Source: a virus
Taxonomy: Duplodnaviria; Heunggongvirae; Uroviricota; Caudoviricetes
Strand: one strand, 5' to 3'
DNA: 6,508 bases
IMG/VR virus record: IMGVR_UViG_2531839146_000005
Positions within the stretch are counted from its first letter, which is position 1. Each line of letters starts with the position of its first letter. Shown one piece after another: positions 1 through 5,638 of the stretch. The position numbers and the translations under genes are program-made. A model generated the notes under the pieces. That model was given only the letters and a program-made list of their open reading frames with translations, had not been told where the DNA came from and did not search any database.

Positions 1-248
1 TGGTGGCGATGTCTCTGTGGCATAACCATCCGAAGAAGACGCAGATGCCGTCCATGAATGAAGCCGTTAAACAGATTGAGCAGGAAGTGCTTACCACCTG
101 GCCCGCGGAGGCAATTTCTCATGCTGAAAACGTGGTGTACCGGCTGTCCGGTATGTATGAGTTTGTGGTGAATGATGCCCCTGAACAGGCAGAGGACGCC
201 GGGCCTGCAGAGCCTGTTTCTGCGGGAAAGTGTTCGACGGTGAGCTGA
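1..248 (+). CDS. G: Tail assembly chaperone G, 3' portion (5' end lies upstream of the window); frame-0 product ends at TGA 246-248
   Basis: ORF 3..248 translates to ...SLWHNHPKKTQMPSMNEAVKQIEQEVLTTWP...AGPAEPVSAGKCSTVS, which I recognise as the C-terminal part of lambda gpG. Sits immediately upstream of the T frame and tape measure gene, the conserved synteny. No start codon in the window (the track's leading M is a GTG read in-frame). Confidence 0.9.
   Translation, partial: VAMSLWHNHPKKTQMPSMNEAVKQIEQEVLTTWPAEAISHAENVVYRLSGMYEFVVNDAPEQAEDAGPAEPVSAGKCSTVS
224..230 (+). other. Programmed -1 ribosomal frameshift slippery heptamer G GGA AAG (G-T recoding site)
   Basis: Sequence gcGGGAAAGtg at 222-232. 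In the G frame the codons are GGA (225-227) and AAG (228-230). A -1 slip re-pairs to GGG AAA and continues at GTG (230-232) in the T frame. This is the same heptamer and position (about 6 codons before the G stop) as the known lambda G-T frameshift. Confidence 0.85.
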
Positions 249-664
249 GTTTTGCCCTGAAACTGGCGCGCGAGATGGGGCGACCCGACTGGCGTGCCAT
301 GCTTGCCGGGATGTCATCCACGGAGTATGCCGACTGGCACCGCTTTTACAGTACCCATTATTTTCATGATGTTCTGCTGGATATGCACTTTTCCGGGCTG
401 ACGTACACCGTGCTCAGCCTGTTTTTCAGCGATCCGGATATGCATCCGCTGGATTTCAGTCTGCTGAACCGGCGCGAGGCTGACGAAGAGCCTGAAGATG
501 ATGTGCTGATGCAGAAAGCGGCAGGGCTTGCCGGAGGTGTCCGCTTTGGCCCGGACGGGAATGAAGTTATCCCTACTTCCCCGGATGTGGCGGACATGAC
601 GGAGGATGACGTAATGCTGATGACAGTATCAGAAGGGATCGCAGGAGGAGTCCGGTATGGCTGA
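230..664 (+). CDS. T: Tail assembly protein T frame, expressed as the C-terminal part of the G-T fusion via -1 frameshift; no independent initiation expected
   Basis: Open frame 230..664 in the -1 frame relative to G, translating VFDGELSFALKLAREMGRPDWRAMLAGMSSTEYADWHRFYSTHYFHDVLLDMHF...EGIAGGVRYG, recognisable as lambda gpT. Stop TGA 662-664 overlaps the H start (ATGGCTGA). Confidence 0.88.
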   Translation: MFDGELSFALKLAREMGRPDWRAMLAGMSSTEYADWHRFYSTHYFHDVLLDMHFSGLTYTVLSLFFSDPDMHPLDFSLLNRREADEEPEDDVLMQKAAGLAGGVRFGPDGNEVIPTSPDVADMTEDDVMLMTVSEGIAGGVRYG

Positions 665-3236
665 ACCGGTAGGCGATCTGGTCGTTGATTTGAGTCTGGA
701 TGCGGCCAGATTTGACGAGCAGATGGCCAGAGTCAGGCGTCATTTTTCCGGTACGGAAAGTGATGCGAAAAAAACAGCGGCAGTCGTTGAACAGTCGCTG
801 AGCCGACAGGCGCTGGCTGCACAGAAAGCGGGGATTTCCGTCGGGCAGTATAAAGCCGCCATGCGTATGCTGCCTGCACAGTTCACCGACGTGGCCACGC
901 AGCTTGCAGGCGGGCAAAGTCCGTGGCTGATCCTGCTGCAACAGGGTGGTCAGGTTAAGGACTCCTTCGGCGGGATGATCCCCATGTTCAGGGGGCTTGC
1001 CGGTGCGATCACCCTGCCGATGGTGGGGGCCACCTCGCTGGCGGTGGCGACCGGTGCGCTGGCGTATGCCTGGTATCAGGGTAACTCAACCCTGTCCGAT
1101 TTCAACAAAACGCTGGTCCTTTCCGGCAATCAGGCGGGACTGACGGCAGATCGTATGCTGGTCCTGTCCAGAGCCGGGCAGGCGGCAGGGCTGACGTTTA
1201 ACCAGACCAGCGAGTCACTGACGGCGCTGGTGAATGCCGGTGTGCGTGGTGGTGAGCAGTTTGAGGCGATCAGCCAGAGTGTGGCGCGTTTCTCCTCTGC
1301 ATCCGGTGTGGAGGTGGACAAGGTCGCTGAAGCCTTCGGGAAGCTGACCACAGACCCGACGTCGGGGTTGACGGCGATGGCACGCCAGTTCCATAACGTG
1401 ACGGCGGAACAGATTGCGTATGTTGCTCAGTTGCAGCGTTCCGGCGATGAAGCCGGGGCATTGCAGGCGGCGAACGAGGCCGCAACGAAAGGGTTTGATG
1501 ACCAGACCCGACGCCTGAAAGAGAACATGGGCACGCTGGAGACCTGGGCAGACAGGACAGCACGGGCATTCAAATCCATGTGGGATTCGGTGCTGGATAT
1601 TGGTCGCCCGGACACTGCCCAGGGAATGCTGGAGAAAGCAGAAAAGGCTTTTGATGAGGCGGACAAAAAATGGCAGTGGTATCAGAGCCGGAGCCACCGG
1701 CGCGGTAAAACCTCAGCATTTCTTGCCAATCTCCGGGGAGCATGGGAGGACAGAGCGAATGCGCAACTTGGGCTTTCCGCCGCCACGTTGCAGGCCGATC
1801 TTGAAAAGGCCAGAGAGATGGCAGCAAAGGACTGGGCCGAGTCTGAGGCATCACGGCTGAAATATACCGAAGAGGCGCAGAAGGCTTACGAACGCCTGCA
1901 GACGCCGCTGGAGAAATATACCGCCCGTCAGGAAGAACTGAACAAGGCACTGAAAGACGGGAAAATCCTGCAGGCAGATTACAACACGCTGATGGCGGCG
2001 GCGAAAAAGGATTATGAAGCGACGCTGAAAAAGCCGAAACAGTCCGGCGTGAAGGTGTCTGCGGGCGATCGTCAGGAAGACAGTGCTCATGCTGCCCTGC
2101 TGACGCTTCAGGCAGAACTCCGGACGCTGGAGAAGCATGCCGGAGCGAATGAGAAAATCAGCCAGCAGCGCCGGGATTTGTGGAAGGCAGAAAGTCAGTT
2201 CGCGGTACTGGAGGAGGCGGCACAACGTCGCCAGCTGTCCGCACAGGAGAAATCCCTGCTGGCGCATAAAGATGAGACGCTGGAGTACAAACGCCAGCTG
2301 GCTGCACTTGGCGACAAGGTTACGTATCAGGAGCGCCTGAACGCGCTGGCGCAGCAGGCGGATAAATTCGCACAGCAGCAACGGGCAAAACGGGCCGCCA
2401 TTGATGCGAAAAGCCGGGGGCTGACTGACCGGCAGGCAGAACGGGAAGCCACGGAACAGCGCCTGAAGGAACAGTATGGCGATAATCCGCTGGCGCTGAA
2501 TAACGTCATGTCAGAGCAGAAAAAGACCTGGGCGGCTGAAGACCAGCTTCGCGGGAGCTGGATGGCAGGCCTGAAGTCCGGCTGGAGTGAGTGGGAAGAG
2601 AGCGCCACGGACAGTATGTCGCAGGTAAAAAGTGCAGCCACGCAGACCTTTGATGGTATTGCACAGAATATGGCGGCGATGCTGACCGGCAGTGAGCAGA
2701 ACTGGCGCAGCTTCACCCGTTCCGTGCTGTCCATGATGACAGAAATTCTGCTTAAGCAGGCAATGGTGGGGATTGTCGGGAGTATCGGCAGCGCCATTGG
2801 CGGGGCTGTTGGTGGCGGCGCATCCGCGTCAGGCGGTACAGCCATTCAGGCCGCTGCGGCGAAATTCCATTTTGCAACCGGAGGATTTACGGGAACCGGC
2901 GGCAAATATGAGCCAGCGGGGATTGTTCACCGTGGTGAGTTTGTCTTCACGAAGGAGGCAACCAGCCGGATTGGCGTGGGGAATCTTTACCGGCTGATGC
3001 GCGGCTATGCCACCGGCGGTTATGTCGGTACACCGGGCAGCATGGCAGACAGCCGGTCGCAGGCGTCCGGGACGTTTGAGCAGAATAACCATGTGGTGAT
3101 TAACAACGACGGCACGAACGGGCAGATAGGTCCGGCTGCTCTGAAGGCGGTGTATGACATGGCCCGCAAGGGTGCCCGTGATGAAATTCAGACACAGATG
3201 CGTGATGGTGGCCTGTTCTCCGGAGGTGGACGATGA
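657..3236 (+). CDS. H: Tail tape measure protein (tail length determinant), 859 aa
   Basis: Long ORF starting MAEPVGDLVVDLSLDAARFDEQMARVRRHF, matching the lambda gpH N-terminus. Shine-Dalgarno AGGAGGAG at 643-650, 8 nt before ATG 657. Large Ala/Gln/Arg/Glu/Lys-rich central region typical of coiled-coil tape measure proteins. Gly-rich hydrophobic segment near the C-terminus. Position after G/T matches the conserved order. Confidence 0.95.
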   Translation: MAEPVGDLVVDLSLDAARFDEQMARVRRHFSGTESDAKKTAAVVEQSLSRQALAAQKAGISVGQYKAAMRMLPAQFTDVATQLAGGQSPWLILLQQGGQVKDSFGGMIPMFRGLAGAITLPMVGATSLAVATGALAYAWYQGNSTLSDFNKTLVLSGNQAGLTADRMLVLSRAGQAAGLTFNQTSESLTALVNAGVRGGEQFEAISQSVARFSSASGVEVDKVAEAFGKLTTDPTSGLTAMARQFHNVTAEQIAYVAQLQRSGDEAGALQAANEAATKGFDDQTRRLKENMGTLETWADRTARAFKSMWDSVLDIGRPDTAQGMLEKAEKAFDEADKKWQWYQSRSHRRGKTSAFLANLRGAWEDRANAQLGLSAATLQADLEKAREMAAKDWAESEASRLKYTEEAQKAYERLQTPLEKYTARQEELNKALKDGKILQADYNTLMAAAKKDYEATLKKPKQSGVKVSAGDRQEDSAHAALLTLQAELRTLEKHAGANEKISQQRRDLWKAESQFAVLEEAAQRRQLSAQEKSLLAHKDETLEYKRQLAALGDKVTYQERLNALAQQADKFAQQQRAKRAAIDAKSRGLTDRQAEREATEQRLKEQYGDNPLALNNVMSEQKKTWAAEDQLRGSWMAGLKSGWSEWEESATDSMSQVKSAATQTFDGIAQNMAAMLTGSEQNWRSFTRSVLSMMTEILLKQAMVGIVGSIGSAIGGAVGGGASASGGTAIQAAAAKFHFATGGFTGTGGKYEPAGIVHRGEFVFTKEATSRIGVGNLYRLMRGYATGGYVGTPGSMADSRSQASGTFEQNNHVVINNDGTNGQIGPAALKAVYDMARKGARDEIQTQMRDGGLFSGGGR

Positions 3237-4265: not shown

Positions 4266-5009
4266 ATGACAGAGACAGAATCAGCGATTCTGGCGCACGC
4301 CCGGCGATGTGCGCCAGCGGAGTCGTGCGGCTTCGTGGTGAGAACGCCGGAGGGGGAAAGATATTTTCCCTGCGTAAATATCTCCGGTGAGCCGGAGGAT
4401 TATTTTCGGATGTCGCCGGAGGACTGGCTGCAGGCAGAAATGCAGGGTGAGATTGTGGCGCTGGTCCACAGTCATCCCGGTGGTCTGCCCTGGCTGAGTG
4501 AGGCTGACCGGCGGCTGCAGGTGCAGAGTGATTTGCCGTGGTGGCTGGTCTGCCGGGGGGCGATTCATAAGTTCCGCTGTGTGCCGCATCTCACCGGGCG
4601 GCGCTTTGAGCACGGGGTGACGGACTGTTACACGCTGTTCCGGGATGCTTATCATCTGGCGGGGATTGAGATGCCGAATTTTCATCGCGGGGATGACTGG
4701 TGGCGTCACGGCCAGAATCTCTATCTGGATAATCTGGAGGACACAGGGCTGTATCAGGTGCCGTTGTCATCAGCACAACCGGGCGATGTGCTGCTGTGCT
4801 GTTTTGGTTCATCGGTGCCGAATCATGCCGCCATTTACTGTGGTGACGGCGAGCTGCTGCACCATATTCCTGAACAACTGAGCAAACGAGAGAGGTATAC
4901 CGACAAATGGCAGCGACGCACACACTCCCTCTGGCGTCACCGGGCATGGCGCGCATCTGCCTTTACGGGGATTTACAACGATTTGGCCGCCGCATCGACC
5001 TTCGTGTGA
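4266..5009 (+). CDS. K: Tail assembly protein K, JAMM/MPN metallopeptidase domain plus NlpC/P60-like domain; 247 aa from ATG 4266 (alternative internal start at 4410 would give 199 aa)
   Basis: ORF MTETESAILAHARRCAPAESCGFVV...ALVHSHPGGLPWLSEAD...GVTDCYTLF...NHAAIYCG... JAMM motif H-x-H-x7-S-x2-D at residues 68-81 (nt 4467-4508). Upstream E-x-C-G (E19, nt 4320-4331). Candidate NlpC/P60 catalytic Cys121 (nt 4626-4628). ATG 4266 lies 5 nt after the L stop. Confidence 0.88.
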   Translation: MTETESAILAHARRCAPAESCGFVVRTPEGERYFPCVNISGEPEDYFRMSPEDWLQAEMQGEIVALVHSHPGGLPWLSEADRRLQVQSDLPWWLVCRGAIHKFRCVPHLTGRRFEHGVTDCYTLFRDAYHLAGIEMPNFHRGDDWWRHGQNLYLDNLEDTGLYQVPLSSAQPGDVLLCCFGSSVPNHAAIYCGDGELLHHIPEQLSKRERYTDKWQRRTHSLWRHRAWRASAFTGIYNDLAAASTFV

Positions 5010-5578
5010 AAACGGGGGCTGAAGCCATCCGGGCGCTGGCCACACAGCTCCCGGCGTTTCGTCAGAAACTGAGCGACGGCTGGTATCAGGTACGGATTTC
5101 CGGGCGGGACGTCAGCACGTCCGGATTGACGGCGCAGTTACATGAGGTTCTGCCTGACGGCGCTGTGATTCATATTGTTCCCAGAGTCGCCGGGGCCAAG
5201 TCAGGGGGCGTATTCCAGATTGTTCTGGGGGCTGCCGCCATTGCCGGATCATTCTTTACTGCCGGAGCCACCCTTGCAGCATGGGGGGCAGCCATTGGGG
5301 CCGGTGGTATGACCAGTATCCTGTTTTCTCTCGGTGCCAGTATGGTACTTGGTGGTGTGGCGCAGATGCTGGCACCGAAAGCCAGGACGCCCACGGCAGC
5401 AAGTACAGATAACGGCAAACAGAACACCTATTTCTCCTCACTGGATAACATGGTTGCCCAGGGCAATGTTCTGCCCGTTCTGTACGGTGAAATGCGCGTG
5501 GGGTCGCGGGTGGTCTCTCAGGAGATCAGCACGGCAGACGAAGGGGATGGTGGTCAGGTTGTGGTGATTGGTCGCTGA
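4907..5578 (+). CDS. I: Tail assembly protein I, 223 aa; N-terminal ubiquitin-like region ending in Gly-Gly, C-terminal Gly/Ala-rich hydrophobic region
   Basis: ORF MAATHTLPLASPGMARICLYGDLQRFGRRIDLRVKTGAEAIRALATQ..., matching lambda gpI length (223 aa) and sequence. Overlaps the 3' end of K by 103 nt in a different frame, as in lambda. GG at residues 100-101 (nt 5204-5209) followed by VFQIVLGAAAIAGSFFTAGATLAAWGAAIGAGG. Confidence 0.9.
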   Translation: MAATHTLPLASPGMARICLYGDLQRFGRRIDLRVKTGAEAIRALATQLPAFRQKLSDGWYQVRISGRDVSTSGLTAQLHEVLPDGAVIHIVPRVAGAKSGGVFQIVLGAAAIAGSFFTAGATLAAWGAAIGAGGMTSILFSLGASMVLGGVAQMLAPKARTPTAASTDNGKQNTYFSSLDNMVAQGNVLPVLYGEMRVGSRVVSQEISTADEGDGGQVVVIGR

Positions 5579-5595: not shown

Positions 5596-5620
5596 GAAAC
5601 CGCCTCCGGGCGGTTTTATC
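5596..5620 (+). terminator. GC-rich hairpin followed by T-tract in the I-J intergenic region (putative weak intrinsic terminator or RNA stability element)
   Basis: gAAACCGCC (5596-5604), loop tccg (5605-5608), GGCGGTTTt (5609-5617): a perfect 8-bp inverted repeat (5597-5604 with 5609-5616) followed by tttatcgtttat. It sits between the I stop (5576-5578) and the J Shine-Dalgarno (GGAG 5627-5630). Confidence 0.4.
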
Positions 5621-5638
5621 GTTTATGGAGCATGACGA

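What the first reader, a model, noticed from the sequence alone, without database searches (positions are those of the whole stretch)
224..230. Conserved G-T -1 frameshift heptamer G GGA AAG
The slippery heptamer sits about 6 codons before the G stop, with the T frame open from 230 to 664 and no plausible independent start or Shine-Dalgarno for T. This reproduces the lambda arrangement, in which a small fraction of ribosomes shift to make G-T, and that ratio is essential for tail assembly. It confirms the gene-pair identity and that T must be annotated as a fusion, not as the GTG-initiated ORF 230..664 the track suggests.
Basis: partly seen in the sequence, partly recalled or inferred. Interest (0 to 1): 0.4.

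Follow-up and report, generated by a model that had tools for sequence, protein, structure and literature searches.

The report
Lambda G-T tail chaperone frameshift site
This is the well-known ribosome "slip" site of phage lambda's tail-assembly genes G and T, present here unchanged in a lambda-like E. coli phage or prophage; it is real but ordinary and has been understood since 1993.

Summary
Observation confirmed. GGGAAAG lies at 224-230 in the register G GGA AAG of the G frame. Five sense codons follow before the G stop (246-248), and the -1 frame then runs 144 codons to 664.

The window is a lambda-type tail module: 98.8% identical to lambda 9886-10785 over its first 900 bases. The heptamer equals lambda 10109-10115, and the surrounding 64 bases (207-270) are identical.

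Thirteen relatives, down to about 72% identity, keep a slippery heptamer at the same codon and register (GGGAAAG, GGAAAAG or AAAAAAG). A_AAG is invariant.

The GTG at 230 is a start codon only in the lambda clade. Elsewhere the first start-like T-frame codon lies 10-24 codons downstream of conserved T-frame residues, so T cannot be generally self-initiated.

Pfam places the two frames in the lambda G (PF06894) and T (PF06223) families.

The mechanism is therefore the published lambda -1 programmed ribosomal frameshift, which gives about 4% gpGT.

- The T frame opens at 185, not 230.
- G is cut by the window edge.
- gpG and gpGT are absent from virions.
- Trypsin cuts at the junction lysine.

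Novelty: already known. Interest: low.

The parts
1..248 (+). 3' part of gene G (tail assembly chaperone gpG). Codons are read from position 3, and the stop is TGA at 246-248. The start of the gene lies left of the window.
   Evidence: Pfam PF06894 Phage_TAC_2, E=1.5e-26, matching profile positions 61-125 of 126. Equals lambda G 9711-10133.
182..184 (+). TGA stop that closes the -1 (T) frame upstream of the slip site. The T frame is open from 185.
   Evidence: In relatives the T frame likewise opens only 5-22 codons before the first T codon (3-20 before the heptamer).
224..230 (+). Slippery heptamer G GGA AAG, the site of tandem -1 slippage. tRNA-Gly moves from GGA to GGG, and tRNA-Lys(mnm5s2UUU) from AAG to AAA.
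   Evidence: Register shown. Identical to lambda 10109-10115. Conserved in register in 13 relatives. Mechanism for lambda from PMC3296357, PMC7618472 and PMC5009743.
230..664 (+). T segment, read in the -1 frame after the slip: 144 codons, then stop TGA at 662-664. With G residues 1-135 this gives gpGT of 279 aa. The correct feature is join(<1..230,230..664).
   Evidence: Pfam PF06223 Phage_tail_T, E=2e-14. Equals the lambda 'T' CDS 10115-10549. Lengths.
238..308 (+). Predicted RNA hairpin starting 7 nt after the heptamer: outer stem 238-245/301-308 and inner hairpin 264-279/284-299. It is a possible but unproven stimulator.
   Evidence: MFE -40.3 kcal/mol, but z=-1.69 and 12 of 200 shuffles fold as well. 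In the alignment fold, 13 of 21 pairs are invariant and only one shows a clean two-sided change.
657..3236 (+). Gene H (tape measure protein, 859 aa), the binding partner of gpG/gpGT. Its ATG overlaps the end of T by 8 nt and has a strong Shine-Dalgarno sequence (GGAGGAG).
   Evidence: Annotated as tape measure in all relatives.

Best explanation
The heptamer is the programmed -1 ribosomal frameshift site of the tail-assembly chaperone gene pair G/T of a lambda-type siphovirus, most likely an E. coli prophage or a close lambda relative.

Most ribosomes translating G read G GGA AAG in frame and stop five codons later, which gives gpG. A few per cent slip back one base, with tRNA-Gly on GGA and tRNA-Lys (anticodon mnm5s2UUU) on AAG re-pairing with GGG and AAA. 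These ribosomes read GTG at 230 as valine and continue for 144 codons, which gives the fusion gpGT (279 aa if G is 140 aa as in lambda).

gpG and the G part of gpGT coat the tape measure protein H, encoded immediately downstream. The T part recruits the major tail protein V. The fixed ratio of about 30:1 set by the slip frequency is needed for correct tail assembly, and neither protein ends up in the virion.

Shown here: the site, its register, its identity to lambda, family membership of both frames, conservation in register, and the lack of a conserved independent start. Taken from the literature on lambda, whose sequence is identical: the frameshift itself, its frequency, the role of the tRNA, and the functions of the proteins. 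Inferred: that this particular phage behaves the same way.
For: - Register and frames.
- Identity to lambda: 98.8% over 1-900, with the heptamer at lambda 10109-10115. The junction at 207-270 is identical to lambda.
- Family membership: PF06894 for the G frame and PF06223 for the T frame.
- Gene order G-T-H-M-L-K-I-J as in lambda.
- Conservation: 13 relatives down to about 72% nt identity carry GGGAAAG, GGAAAAG or AAAAAAG at the same codon and register, 5 codons before the G stop (1 in Kp4865-4). The T frame closes 3-20 codons upstream of the heptamer. The N15 and LLS records annotate this site explicitly as a -1 slippery sequence.
- No conserved start: the codon after the slip is a start codon only in the lambda clade. 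Elsewhere the first ATG/GTG/TTG in the T frame is at codon +10, +16 or +24, although T-frame residues +1..+23 are conserved.
- Coding signature: after the G stop, variable alignment columns fall on T-frame codon position 3 (17/27, against 7/27 and 6/28). The T frame is therefore under protein-coding selection from the start of T-only sequence, right after the G stop.
- Weak Shine-Dalgarno pairing for GTG230 (-4.3 kcal/mol, against -10.3 for H and -10.8 for M).
- Internal control: this is the only in-register heptamer among about 2192 codons that opens a long -1 frame.
- Literature: about 96% zero frame, and dependence on tRNA-Lys thiolation (PMC3296357); 30:1 ratio, chaperone roles and absence from virions (PMC5009743); A_AAG is the most shift-prone tetramer in E. 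coli (PMC4066793); G GGA AAG directs frameshifting almost as well as A AAA AAG (PMC6924986).
Against: Nothing in the data argues against it.

Limits:
- No expression data exist for this particular sequence.
- The start of G and gene V lie outside the window.
- The GTG at 230 could in principle also initiate at a low level in the lambda clade.
- The primary paper (Levin et al. 1993) and Xu et al. 2004/2013/2014 are not in the held library, so they are cited through reviews and later papers.
Confidence: 0.97

Rival explanations
1. T is an ordinary, independently initiated gene starting at GTG 230, as most database records annotate it, and the heptamer is incidental.
For: GTG is a legal bacterial start codon. 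RefSeq lambda, PGAP on E. coli genomes and many phage records annotate T as a separate CDS from this GTG. One record even marks GGG within the heptamer as a ribosome binding site. Another gene in the module, K, also lacks any Shine-Dalgarno pairing.
Against: The GTG is replaced by GTC, GCA or GCC in 10 of 12 relatives, while the amino acids encoded just after it stay conserved. The next start-like codon lies 10-24 codons further on. The putative Shine-Dalgarno sequence pairs weakly (-4.3 kcal/mol) and sits only 3 nt from the GTG. The slippery heptamer is conserved in register where the flanks have diverged. For lambda, which has the identical sequence, the literature states that T is expressed as the frameshift fusion gpGT (PMC3296357, PMC5009743).
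Confidence: 0.02
2. The fusion arises by transcriptional slippage of RNA polymerase on the A/G run rather than by ribosomal slippage.
For: Some relatives carry a longer A run at the site (AAAAAAG in Stx1_1649 and ASU11). Transcriptional slippage is known in other phage and bacterial genes (reviewed in PMC5009743).
Against: Here the runs are only G3 and A3, far shorter than the homopolymer runs that support polymerase slippage (established knowledge, not tested here). The conserved feature is the codon register X XXY YYZ and the A_AAG tetramer, which matters for tRNA re-pairing and not for the polymerase. Frameshift frequency in lambda responds to tRNA-Lys U34 thiolation, which is a ribosomal property (PMC3296357).
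Confidence: 0.01

Closest known systems
Phage lambda G/T (gpG / gpGT) -1 programmed ribosomal frameshift, lambda 10109-10115 (Levin, Hendrix & Casjens 1993)
   Same: Identical heptamer, register and distance to the G stop. The flanking 64 bases are identical. T length (144 codons) and gene order are the same, and both products are near-identical proteins.
   Different: There are a few substitutions elsewhere in G and T, at window 14, 33, 105, 149, 174, 189, 206, 271, 574 and 575. The downstream tape measure gene carries a diverged patch and encodes 859 instead of 853 aa. Nothing differs at the frameshift site itself.
N15 gp14/gp15, HK225, phi80, LLS, mEp043 and Klebsiella phage Kp4865-4 tail chaperone frameshifts (G GAA AAG)
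   Same: Homologous G and T proteins. The slip site is at the same codon, 5 codons before the G stop in all but Kp4865-4 (1 codon), with the same A_AAG A-site tetramer. N15 and LLS annotate it as a -1 site.
   Different: The P-site codon is GAA rather than GGA, described as less slippery in vitro (PMC6924986). There is no start codon at the first T codon. T is shorter, at 113-115 codons.
E. coli dnaX (A AAA AAG) and IS3/IS911-type -1 frameshift signals
   Same: The same class of tandem-slippage heptamer ending in A AAG, decoded by the single E. coli tRNA-Lys. The Stx1_1649 and ASU11 relatives use exactly A AAA AAG.
   Different: Those signals depend on an upstream Shine-Dalgarno-like element and a downstream hairpin or pseudoknot, and they shift at high frequency. 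Here no SD-like element lies 6-17 nt upstream, the downstream hairpin is not statistically supported, and the published lambda frequency is only about 4% (PMC3296357).
Lactococcus phage TP901-1 gpG/gpT
   Same: The same heptamer GGGAAAG at the 3' end of the chaperone gene, and the same position between the major tail and tape measure genes. Mutating the heptamer abolishes tails, and a permanent fusion gives non-infectious particles (PMC4493119).
   Different: No detectable sequence similarity of the proteins is reported there ('n.s.h.' in the paper's table), and the host is Gram-positive.

Membership tests
Lambda-type G/GT tail assembly chaperone frameshift (Xu, Hendrix & Duda 2004 class) | Two overlapping ORFs located between the major tail protein gene and the tape measure gene | tested here: met
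   T is followed directly by H (657-3236) in the window. V-G adjacency lies outside the window but is present in the 98-99% identical relatives.
Lambda-type G/GT tail assembly chaperone frameshift (Xu, Hendrix & Duda 2004 class) | [quoted passage not shown] | tested here: met
   G GGA AAG at 224-230, with 5 sense codons before TGA 246-248.
Lambda-type G/GT tail assembly chaperone frameshift (Xu, Hendrix & Duda 2004 class) | Downstream ORF in the -1 frame, open across the slip site and closed shortly upstream | tested here: met
   The -1 frame is open from 185 to 661, with an upstream stop at 182-184. The same arrangement holds in 13 relatives.
Lambda-type G/GT tail assembly chaperone frameshift (Xu, Hendrix & Duda 2004 class) | Downstream ORF lacks its own conserved initiation signal | tested here: met
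   The GTG at 230 is present only in the lambda clade. In 10 of 12 relatives the first start-like codon lies at +10 to +24, after conserved residues. Shine-Dalgarno pairing is weak at -4.3 kcal/mol.
Lambda-type G/GT tail assembly chaperone frameshift (Xu, Hendrix & Duda 2004 class) | Sequence membership of the two parts in the lambda gpG and gpT protein families | tested here: met
   PF06894 at 93.1 bits (cut-off 27) and PF06223 at 54.2 bits (cut-off 25.9).
Lambda-type G/GT tail assembly chaperone frameshift (Xu, Hendrix & Duda 2004 class) | Slip site conserved in position and register among diverged homologues | tested here: met
   13 of 13 relatives. Three heptamer variants all keep A_AAG.
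Lambda-type G/GT tail assembly chaperone frameshift (Xu, Hendrix & Duda 2004 class) | A fusion protein is actually produced at a few per cent and is required, at that ratio, for tail assembly | not testable with these tools
   Published for lambda, whose junction sequence is identical (PMC3296357, PMC5009743, PMC7618472). No expression data exist for this sequence.
dnaX / IS3-type stimulated -1 frameshift signal | Shine-Dalgarno-like stimulator 6-17 nt upstream of the heptamer | tested here: not met
dnaX / IS3-type stimulated -1 frameshift signal | Stable, conserved downstream hairpin or pseudoknot at 5-9 nt spacing | tested here: inconclusive
   A hairpin starts 7 nt downstream, but z=-1.69 (12 of 200 shuffles fold as well). 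Of 21 pairs, 13 never vary. Two are flagged with two-sided changes, but one of those is broken in 4 of 12 sequences. All of this lies inside a conserved coding region.

The most novel reading that the evidence does not exclude
The predicted hairpin that begins 7 nt after the heptamer (238-308, inner hairpin 264-299) might be a genuine, conserved, weak stimulator. If so, it would tune the gpG:gpGT ratio across lambda, N15 and phi80-type phages, and the site would not be a 'stimulator-free' slippery sequence. The evidence does not exclude this. The spacing is right, the pairs are kept in all 12 aligned sequences, and one pair switches from G-C to A-U. But the fold is not better than shuffles, and the conservation can be explained by the conserved protein sequence LAREMGRPDWRAML.
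Probability: 0.15. Interest if true: 0.2.

Novelty: already known. Interest (0 to 1): 0.05.

Why it matters
The value here is practical rather than conceptual. The site shows that 230..664 should be annotated as the 3' part of a join (gpGT) and not as a free-standing T gene. RefSeq lambda, PGAP and most phage records still carry that error. This tail module occurs in 4523 of 5426 complete E. coli genomes, so the error is propagated thousands of times.

Biologically, the site fixes the gpG:gpGT ratio needed to build a tail of correct length. It also makes phage yield sensitive to host tRNA-Lys thiolation (PMC3296357). None of this is new.

Tried and rejected
- **Bare motif statistics:** 2 occurrences against 0.96 expected is not significant. 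I replaced this with a register and context control.
- **Shine-Dalgarno absence as proof against independent initiation:** rejected as insufficient, because gene K also shows no pairing. I used start-codon conservation across relatives instead.
- **Downstream stimulatory structure:** neither the single-sequence fold nor the alignment fold gives convincing support.
- **Upstream SD-like stimulator:** none found.
- **Primary papers:** PMC3762263 (Xu et al. 2013) is not held. Levin 1993 and Xu 2004/2014 are not in the library, so statements about them come from papers that cite them. My recollection that Levin et al. reported a modest effect of downstream sequence could not be verified and is not used as evidence.
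- **Sharma et al. 2014:** a search for lambda-specific data found none. Only the general A_AAG hierarchy was used.
- **The second GGGAAAG at 4354:** I considered whether it could relate to the 1-nt difference from reference lambda in gene K. Rejected, because it is out of register and the difference is absent from a resequenced lambda.

Full report
**1. The observation**

The window reads GGGAAAG at 224-230. In the frame of the ORF that runs in from the left edge, the codons are GCG (222), GGA (225), AAG (228), TGT, TCG, ACG, GTG, AGC and TGA (246-248). The heptamer is therefore in the canonical X XXY YYZ register, with five sense codons between it and the stop.

The -1 frame carries a TGA at 182-184 and is then open from 185 to the TGA at 662-664. 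After a tandem -1 slip the next codon read is GTG (230-232), followed by 143 more sense codons. The predicted junction ...PVSAGK|VFDGELSFALK is correct.

Two details need correcting:
- The T frame opens at 185, not 230.
- The "81-aa GTG ORF 3..248" is the truncated 3' part of a longer gene that runs off the window. The Pfam match covers profile positions 61-125 of 126.

**2. Is it more than chance?**

The bare 7-mer is not informative. It occurs twice in the window against 0.96 expected, and 51 of 200 shuffles had at least two. The context is informative.

Across about 2192 codons of all genes in the window there are only three in-register X_XXY_YYZ heptamers. Those in L (3669) and J (6016) meet a -1 frame stop within 1 and 0 codons. 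The one at 224 opens 144 codons. The second GGGAAAG, at 4354, lies in gene K in the wrong register (GG GAA AG), so it serves as an internal negative control.

**3. What the locus is**

The first 900 bases are 98.8% identical to phage lambda 9886-10785, so the heptamer equals lambda 10109-10115. From 207 to 270 the two sequences are identical.

The whole window is 95.7-97.7% identical to lambda-group phages. The best full-length hit is PhiR68_2 at 97.7% (PhiR26_1 reaches 99.1% over 97% of the window). It is 98.9% identical to a prophage in E. coli strain 23-AB02114. Similar modules occur in 4523 of 5426 complete E. coli genomes.

The gene order is G(part)-T-H-M-L-K-I-J(part), as in lambda. The G-frame product matches PF06894 (lambda tail assembly chaperone G, E=1.5e-26). 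The T-frame product matches PF06223 (minor tail protein T, E=2e-14).

**4. Comparative test of the site**

A distant-mode search found relatives down to about 72% nucleotide identity, and I fetched a spread of them. In all 13 relatives a slippery heptamer sits at the homologous codon in the same register. It lies five codons before the G stop (one in Klebsiella phage Kp4865-4). The -1 frame is closed 3-20 codons upstream of the heptamer and open for 113-152 codons downstream.

The heptamer varies by clade:

| Heptamer | Phages |
|---|---|
| GGGAAAG | lambda (incl. lambda imm21), HK630, PhiR68_2, PhiR12_4, an Stx2a phage |
| GGAAAAG | N15, HK225, phi80, LLS, mEp043, Kp4865-4 |
| AAAAAAG | Stx1_1649, ASU11 |

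The flanks differ freely. The invariant element is A_AAG, which is the most shift-prone tetramer in E. coli (PMC4066793). The N15 and LLS records annotate this position explicitly as a -1 slippery sequence, and LLS annotates the product as a two-piece join.

**5. Test of independent initiation**

GTG at 230 is a legal start, and most records annotate T from it. Its best anti-Shine-Dalgarno pairing is -4.3 kcal/mol, made by the GGG of the heptamer only 3 nt away. That compares with -10.3 for H and -10.8 for M. K scores +0.7, however, so a missing Shine-Dalgarno sequence alone proves little.

The comparative result is decisive. In 10 of 12 relatives the codon is GTC, GCA or GCC. The first ATG/GTG/TTG in the T frame then lies at codon +10 (N15, HK225), +16 (PhiR12_4, Stx phages, ASU11) or +24 (phi80, LLS, mEp043, Kp4865-4). 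Yet the T-frame residues from +1 on (xFxGELxFxLKLAREMGRPDWRAML and its variants) stay conserved.

After the G stop, variable alignment columns fall mainly on T-frame codon position 3 (17/27, against 7/27 and 6/28), which is the signature of a translated frame. Those residues can only be reached from G. Independent initiation of T is therefore not the general mechanism.

**6. Stimulatory elements**

No SD-like motif (the set used in PMC4066793) lies upstream of the heptamer. Downstream, a hairpin is predicted to start 7 nt after the heptamer: outer stem 238-245/301-308 and inner hairpin 264-279/284-299.

The single-sequence fold is not better than shuffles (z=-1.69; 12 of 200 fold as well). In the 12-sequence alignment, 13 of 21 pairs never vary. 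Four show only one-sided changes (three G-C/G-U type, one also broken in one sequence). Two differ only by non-pairing cells. Of the two pairs with two-sided changes, one switches cleanly from G-C to A-U between the two main clades, and the other is broken in 4 of 12 sequences. The covariation term is -0.69 kcal/mol.

Because the region encodes a highly conserved peptide, this is not evidence for a structure. It remains an open, minor possibility.

**7. Mechanism**

For lambda, whose junction is identical, the literature states the following:
- gpGT is made by -1 programmed ribosomal frameshifting at G GGA AAG, and the zero frame is kept about 96% of the time (PMC3296357).
- The gpG:gpGT ratio is about 30:1 and is crucial for tail assembly (PMC5009743).
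- Both AAG and AAA are read by tRNA-Lys(mnm5s2UUU). Loss of 2-thiolation raises frameshifting and lowers phage yield (PMC3296357, PMC7618472).
- gpG and the G part of gpGT bind the tape measure protein H. The T part binds the major tail protein V. Neither protein is in the mature virion (PMC5009743).
- G GGA AAG directs frameshifting almost as well as A AAA AAG in vivo, and G GAA AAG is less slippery (PMC6924986).
- In the unrelated Lactococcus phage TP901-1 the same heptamer is used. Destroying it abolishes tails, and a permanent G-T fusion gives non-infectious particles (PMC4493119).

I infer that the phage in this window does the same and makes a gpGT of 135 + 144 = 279 residues. The correct feature is join(<1..230,230..664).

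**8. Rivals**

- Independent initiation at GTG230: about 2%, for the reasons in section 5.
- Transcriptional slippage: about 1%. The runs are only G3 and A3. The conserved features are codon register and A_AAG, which matter to tRNAs and not to polymerase. The lambda frequency responds to a tRNA modification (PMC3296357).

**9.

- A formally possible start codon is present.
- The T frame opens at 185.
- G is cut by the window edge.
- Absence from virions would refute nothing.
- Trypsin cleaves at the junction lysine.

The remark about annotation is right and is worth making. RefSeq lambda (10115..10549), PGAP and most phage records still list T as a separate CDS.

**10. Novelty and interest**

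The site is already known. It is the founding example of the conserved tail-chaperone frameshift, here in an almost unchanged copy. Interest is 0.05.

**11. Noticed in passing**

- **Gene K.** It is a continuous 247-codon ORF here (4266-5009). The classical lambda reference lacks one base at the position equal to window ~4400, which puts the first 44 codons out of frame and leads to a 199-aa K annotated from an internal ATG. That N-terminal part includes the AESCGF glutamate of a likely JAMM motif. A resequenced lambda (PV340536.1) has the extra G and a 247-aa K.
- **Gene H.** It carries a diverged patch at about 1643-1844 and encodes 859 rather than 853 aa.
- **Gene I.** Its start is annotated at three different places in different records.
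- **I-J spacer.** A GC-rich hairpin followed by a T run lies there.
- **A 'Campylobacter phage' record.** It is 98.8% identical to lambda over this region.

Noticed in passing
window 4266-5009 (gene K), indel at about 4399-4400: K is one continuous 247-codon ORF here and in PhiR68_2, in the E. coli prophage NZ_CP172871 and in a resequenced lambda (PV340536.1, GAGGCGTATT). The classical lambda reference NC_001416/J02459 lacks one base (GAGGC-TATT). That puts the first 44 codons out of frame, including AESCGF, the likely catalytic Glu of a JAMM/MPN motif whose HSHP...S..D follows. K is therefore annotated there as 199 aa from an internal ATG. This looks like an error or lesion in the old reference that has passed into RefSeq and UniProt-style annotation.
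   Followed up: yes
window about 1643-1844, inside H (657-3236): The tape measure gene has a strongly diverged patch relative to lambda: 153 differences in 1501-2000, against 0-22 per 250 nt elsewhere, plus several indels with a net gain of 18 nt. This gives 859 instead of 853 aa. Tape measure length sets tail length, so the tail may be marginally longer. The patch looks like a mosaic replacement.
   Followed up: partly
window 4354-4360: A second copy of GGGAAAG lies inside K in the wrong register (GG GAA AG). It has no open alternative frame of note, so it is a chance occurrence that serves as an internal control.
   Followed up: yes
window 4907-5578 (gene I): The start of I is annotated inconsistently. 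It is ATG 4907 (223 aa, overlapping K by 103 nt) in RefSeq lambda. It is about 4973 in PhiR68_2. It is GTG 5006, overlapping the K stop as GTGA, in PGAP and in the resequenced lambda (190 aa). With the full-length K, the 5006 start gives the same stop/start coupling seen at H/M (ATGA) and M/L (TGATG).
   Followed up: partly
window about 5597-5622, between I (stop 5576-5578) and J (ATG 5639): A GC-rich inverted repeat followed by a T run (AAACCGCCTCCGGGCGGTTTTATCGTTT) resembles an intrinsic terminator. It sits inside the late operon just before J. I did not examine it further.
   Followed up: no
public record MW057783.1 (hit H19): A record named 'Campylobacter phage CJLB-4' (host Campylobacter jejuni, 48,361 bp) is 98.8% identical to lambda across G-T-H, with lambda-style gene names. 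It is probably lambda contamination or a mislabelled record.
   Followed up: no
window 645-664: The T stop (TGA 662-664) overlaps the H start (ATG 657) by 8 nt. A strong Shine-Dalgarno sequence (GGAGGAG, -10.3 kcal/mol) lies inside the last T codons. H initiation therefore does not depend on the rare ribosomes that translate T.
   Followed up: partly
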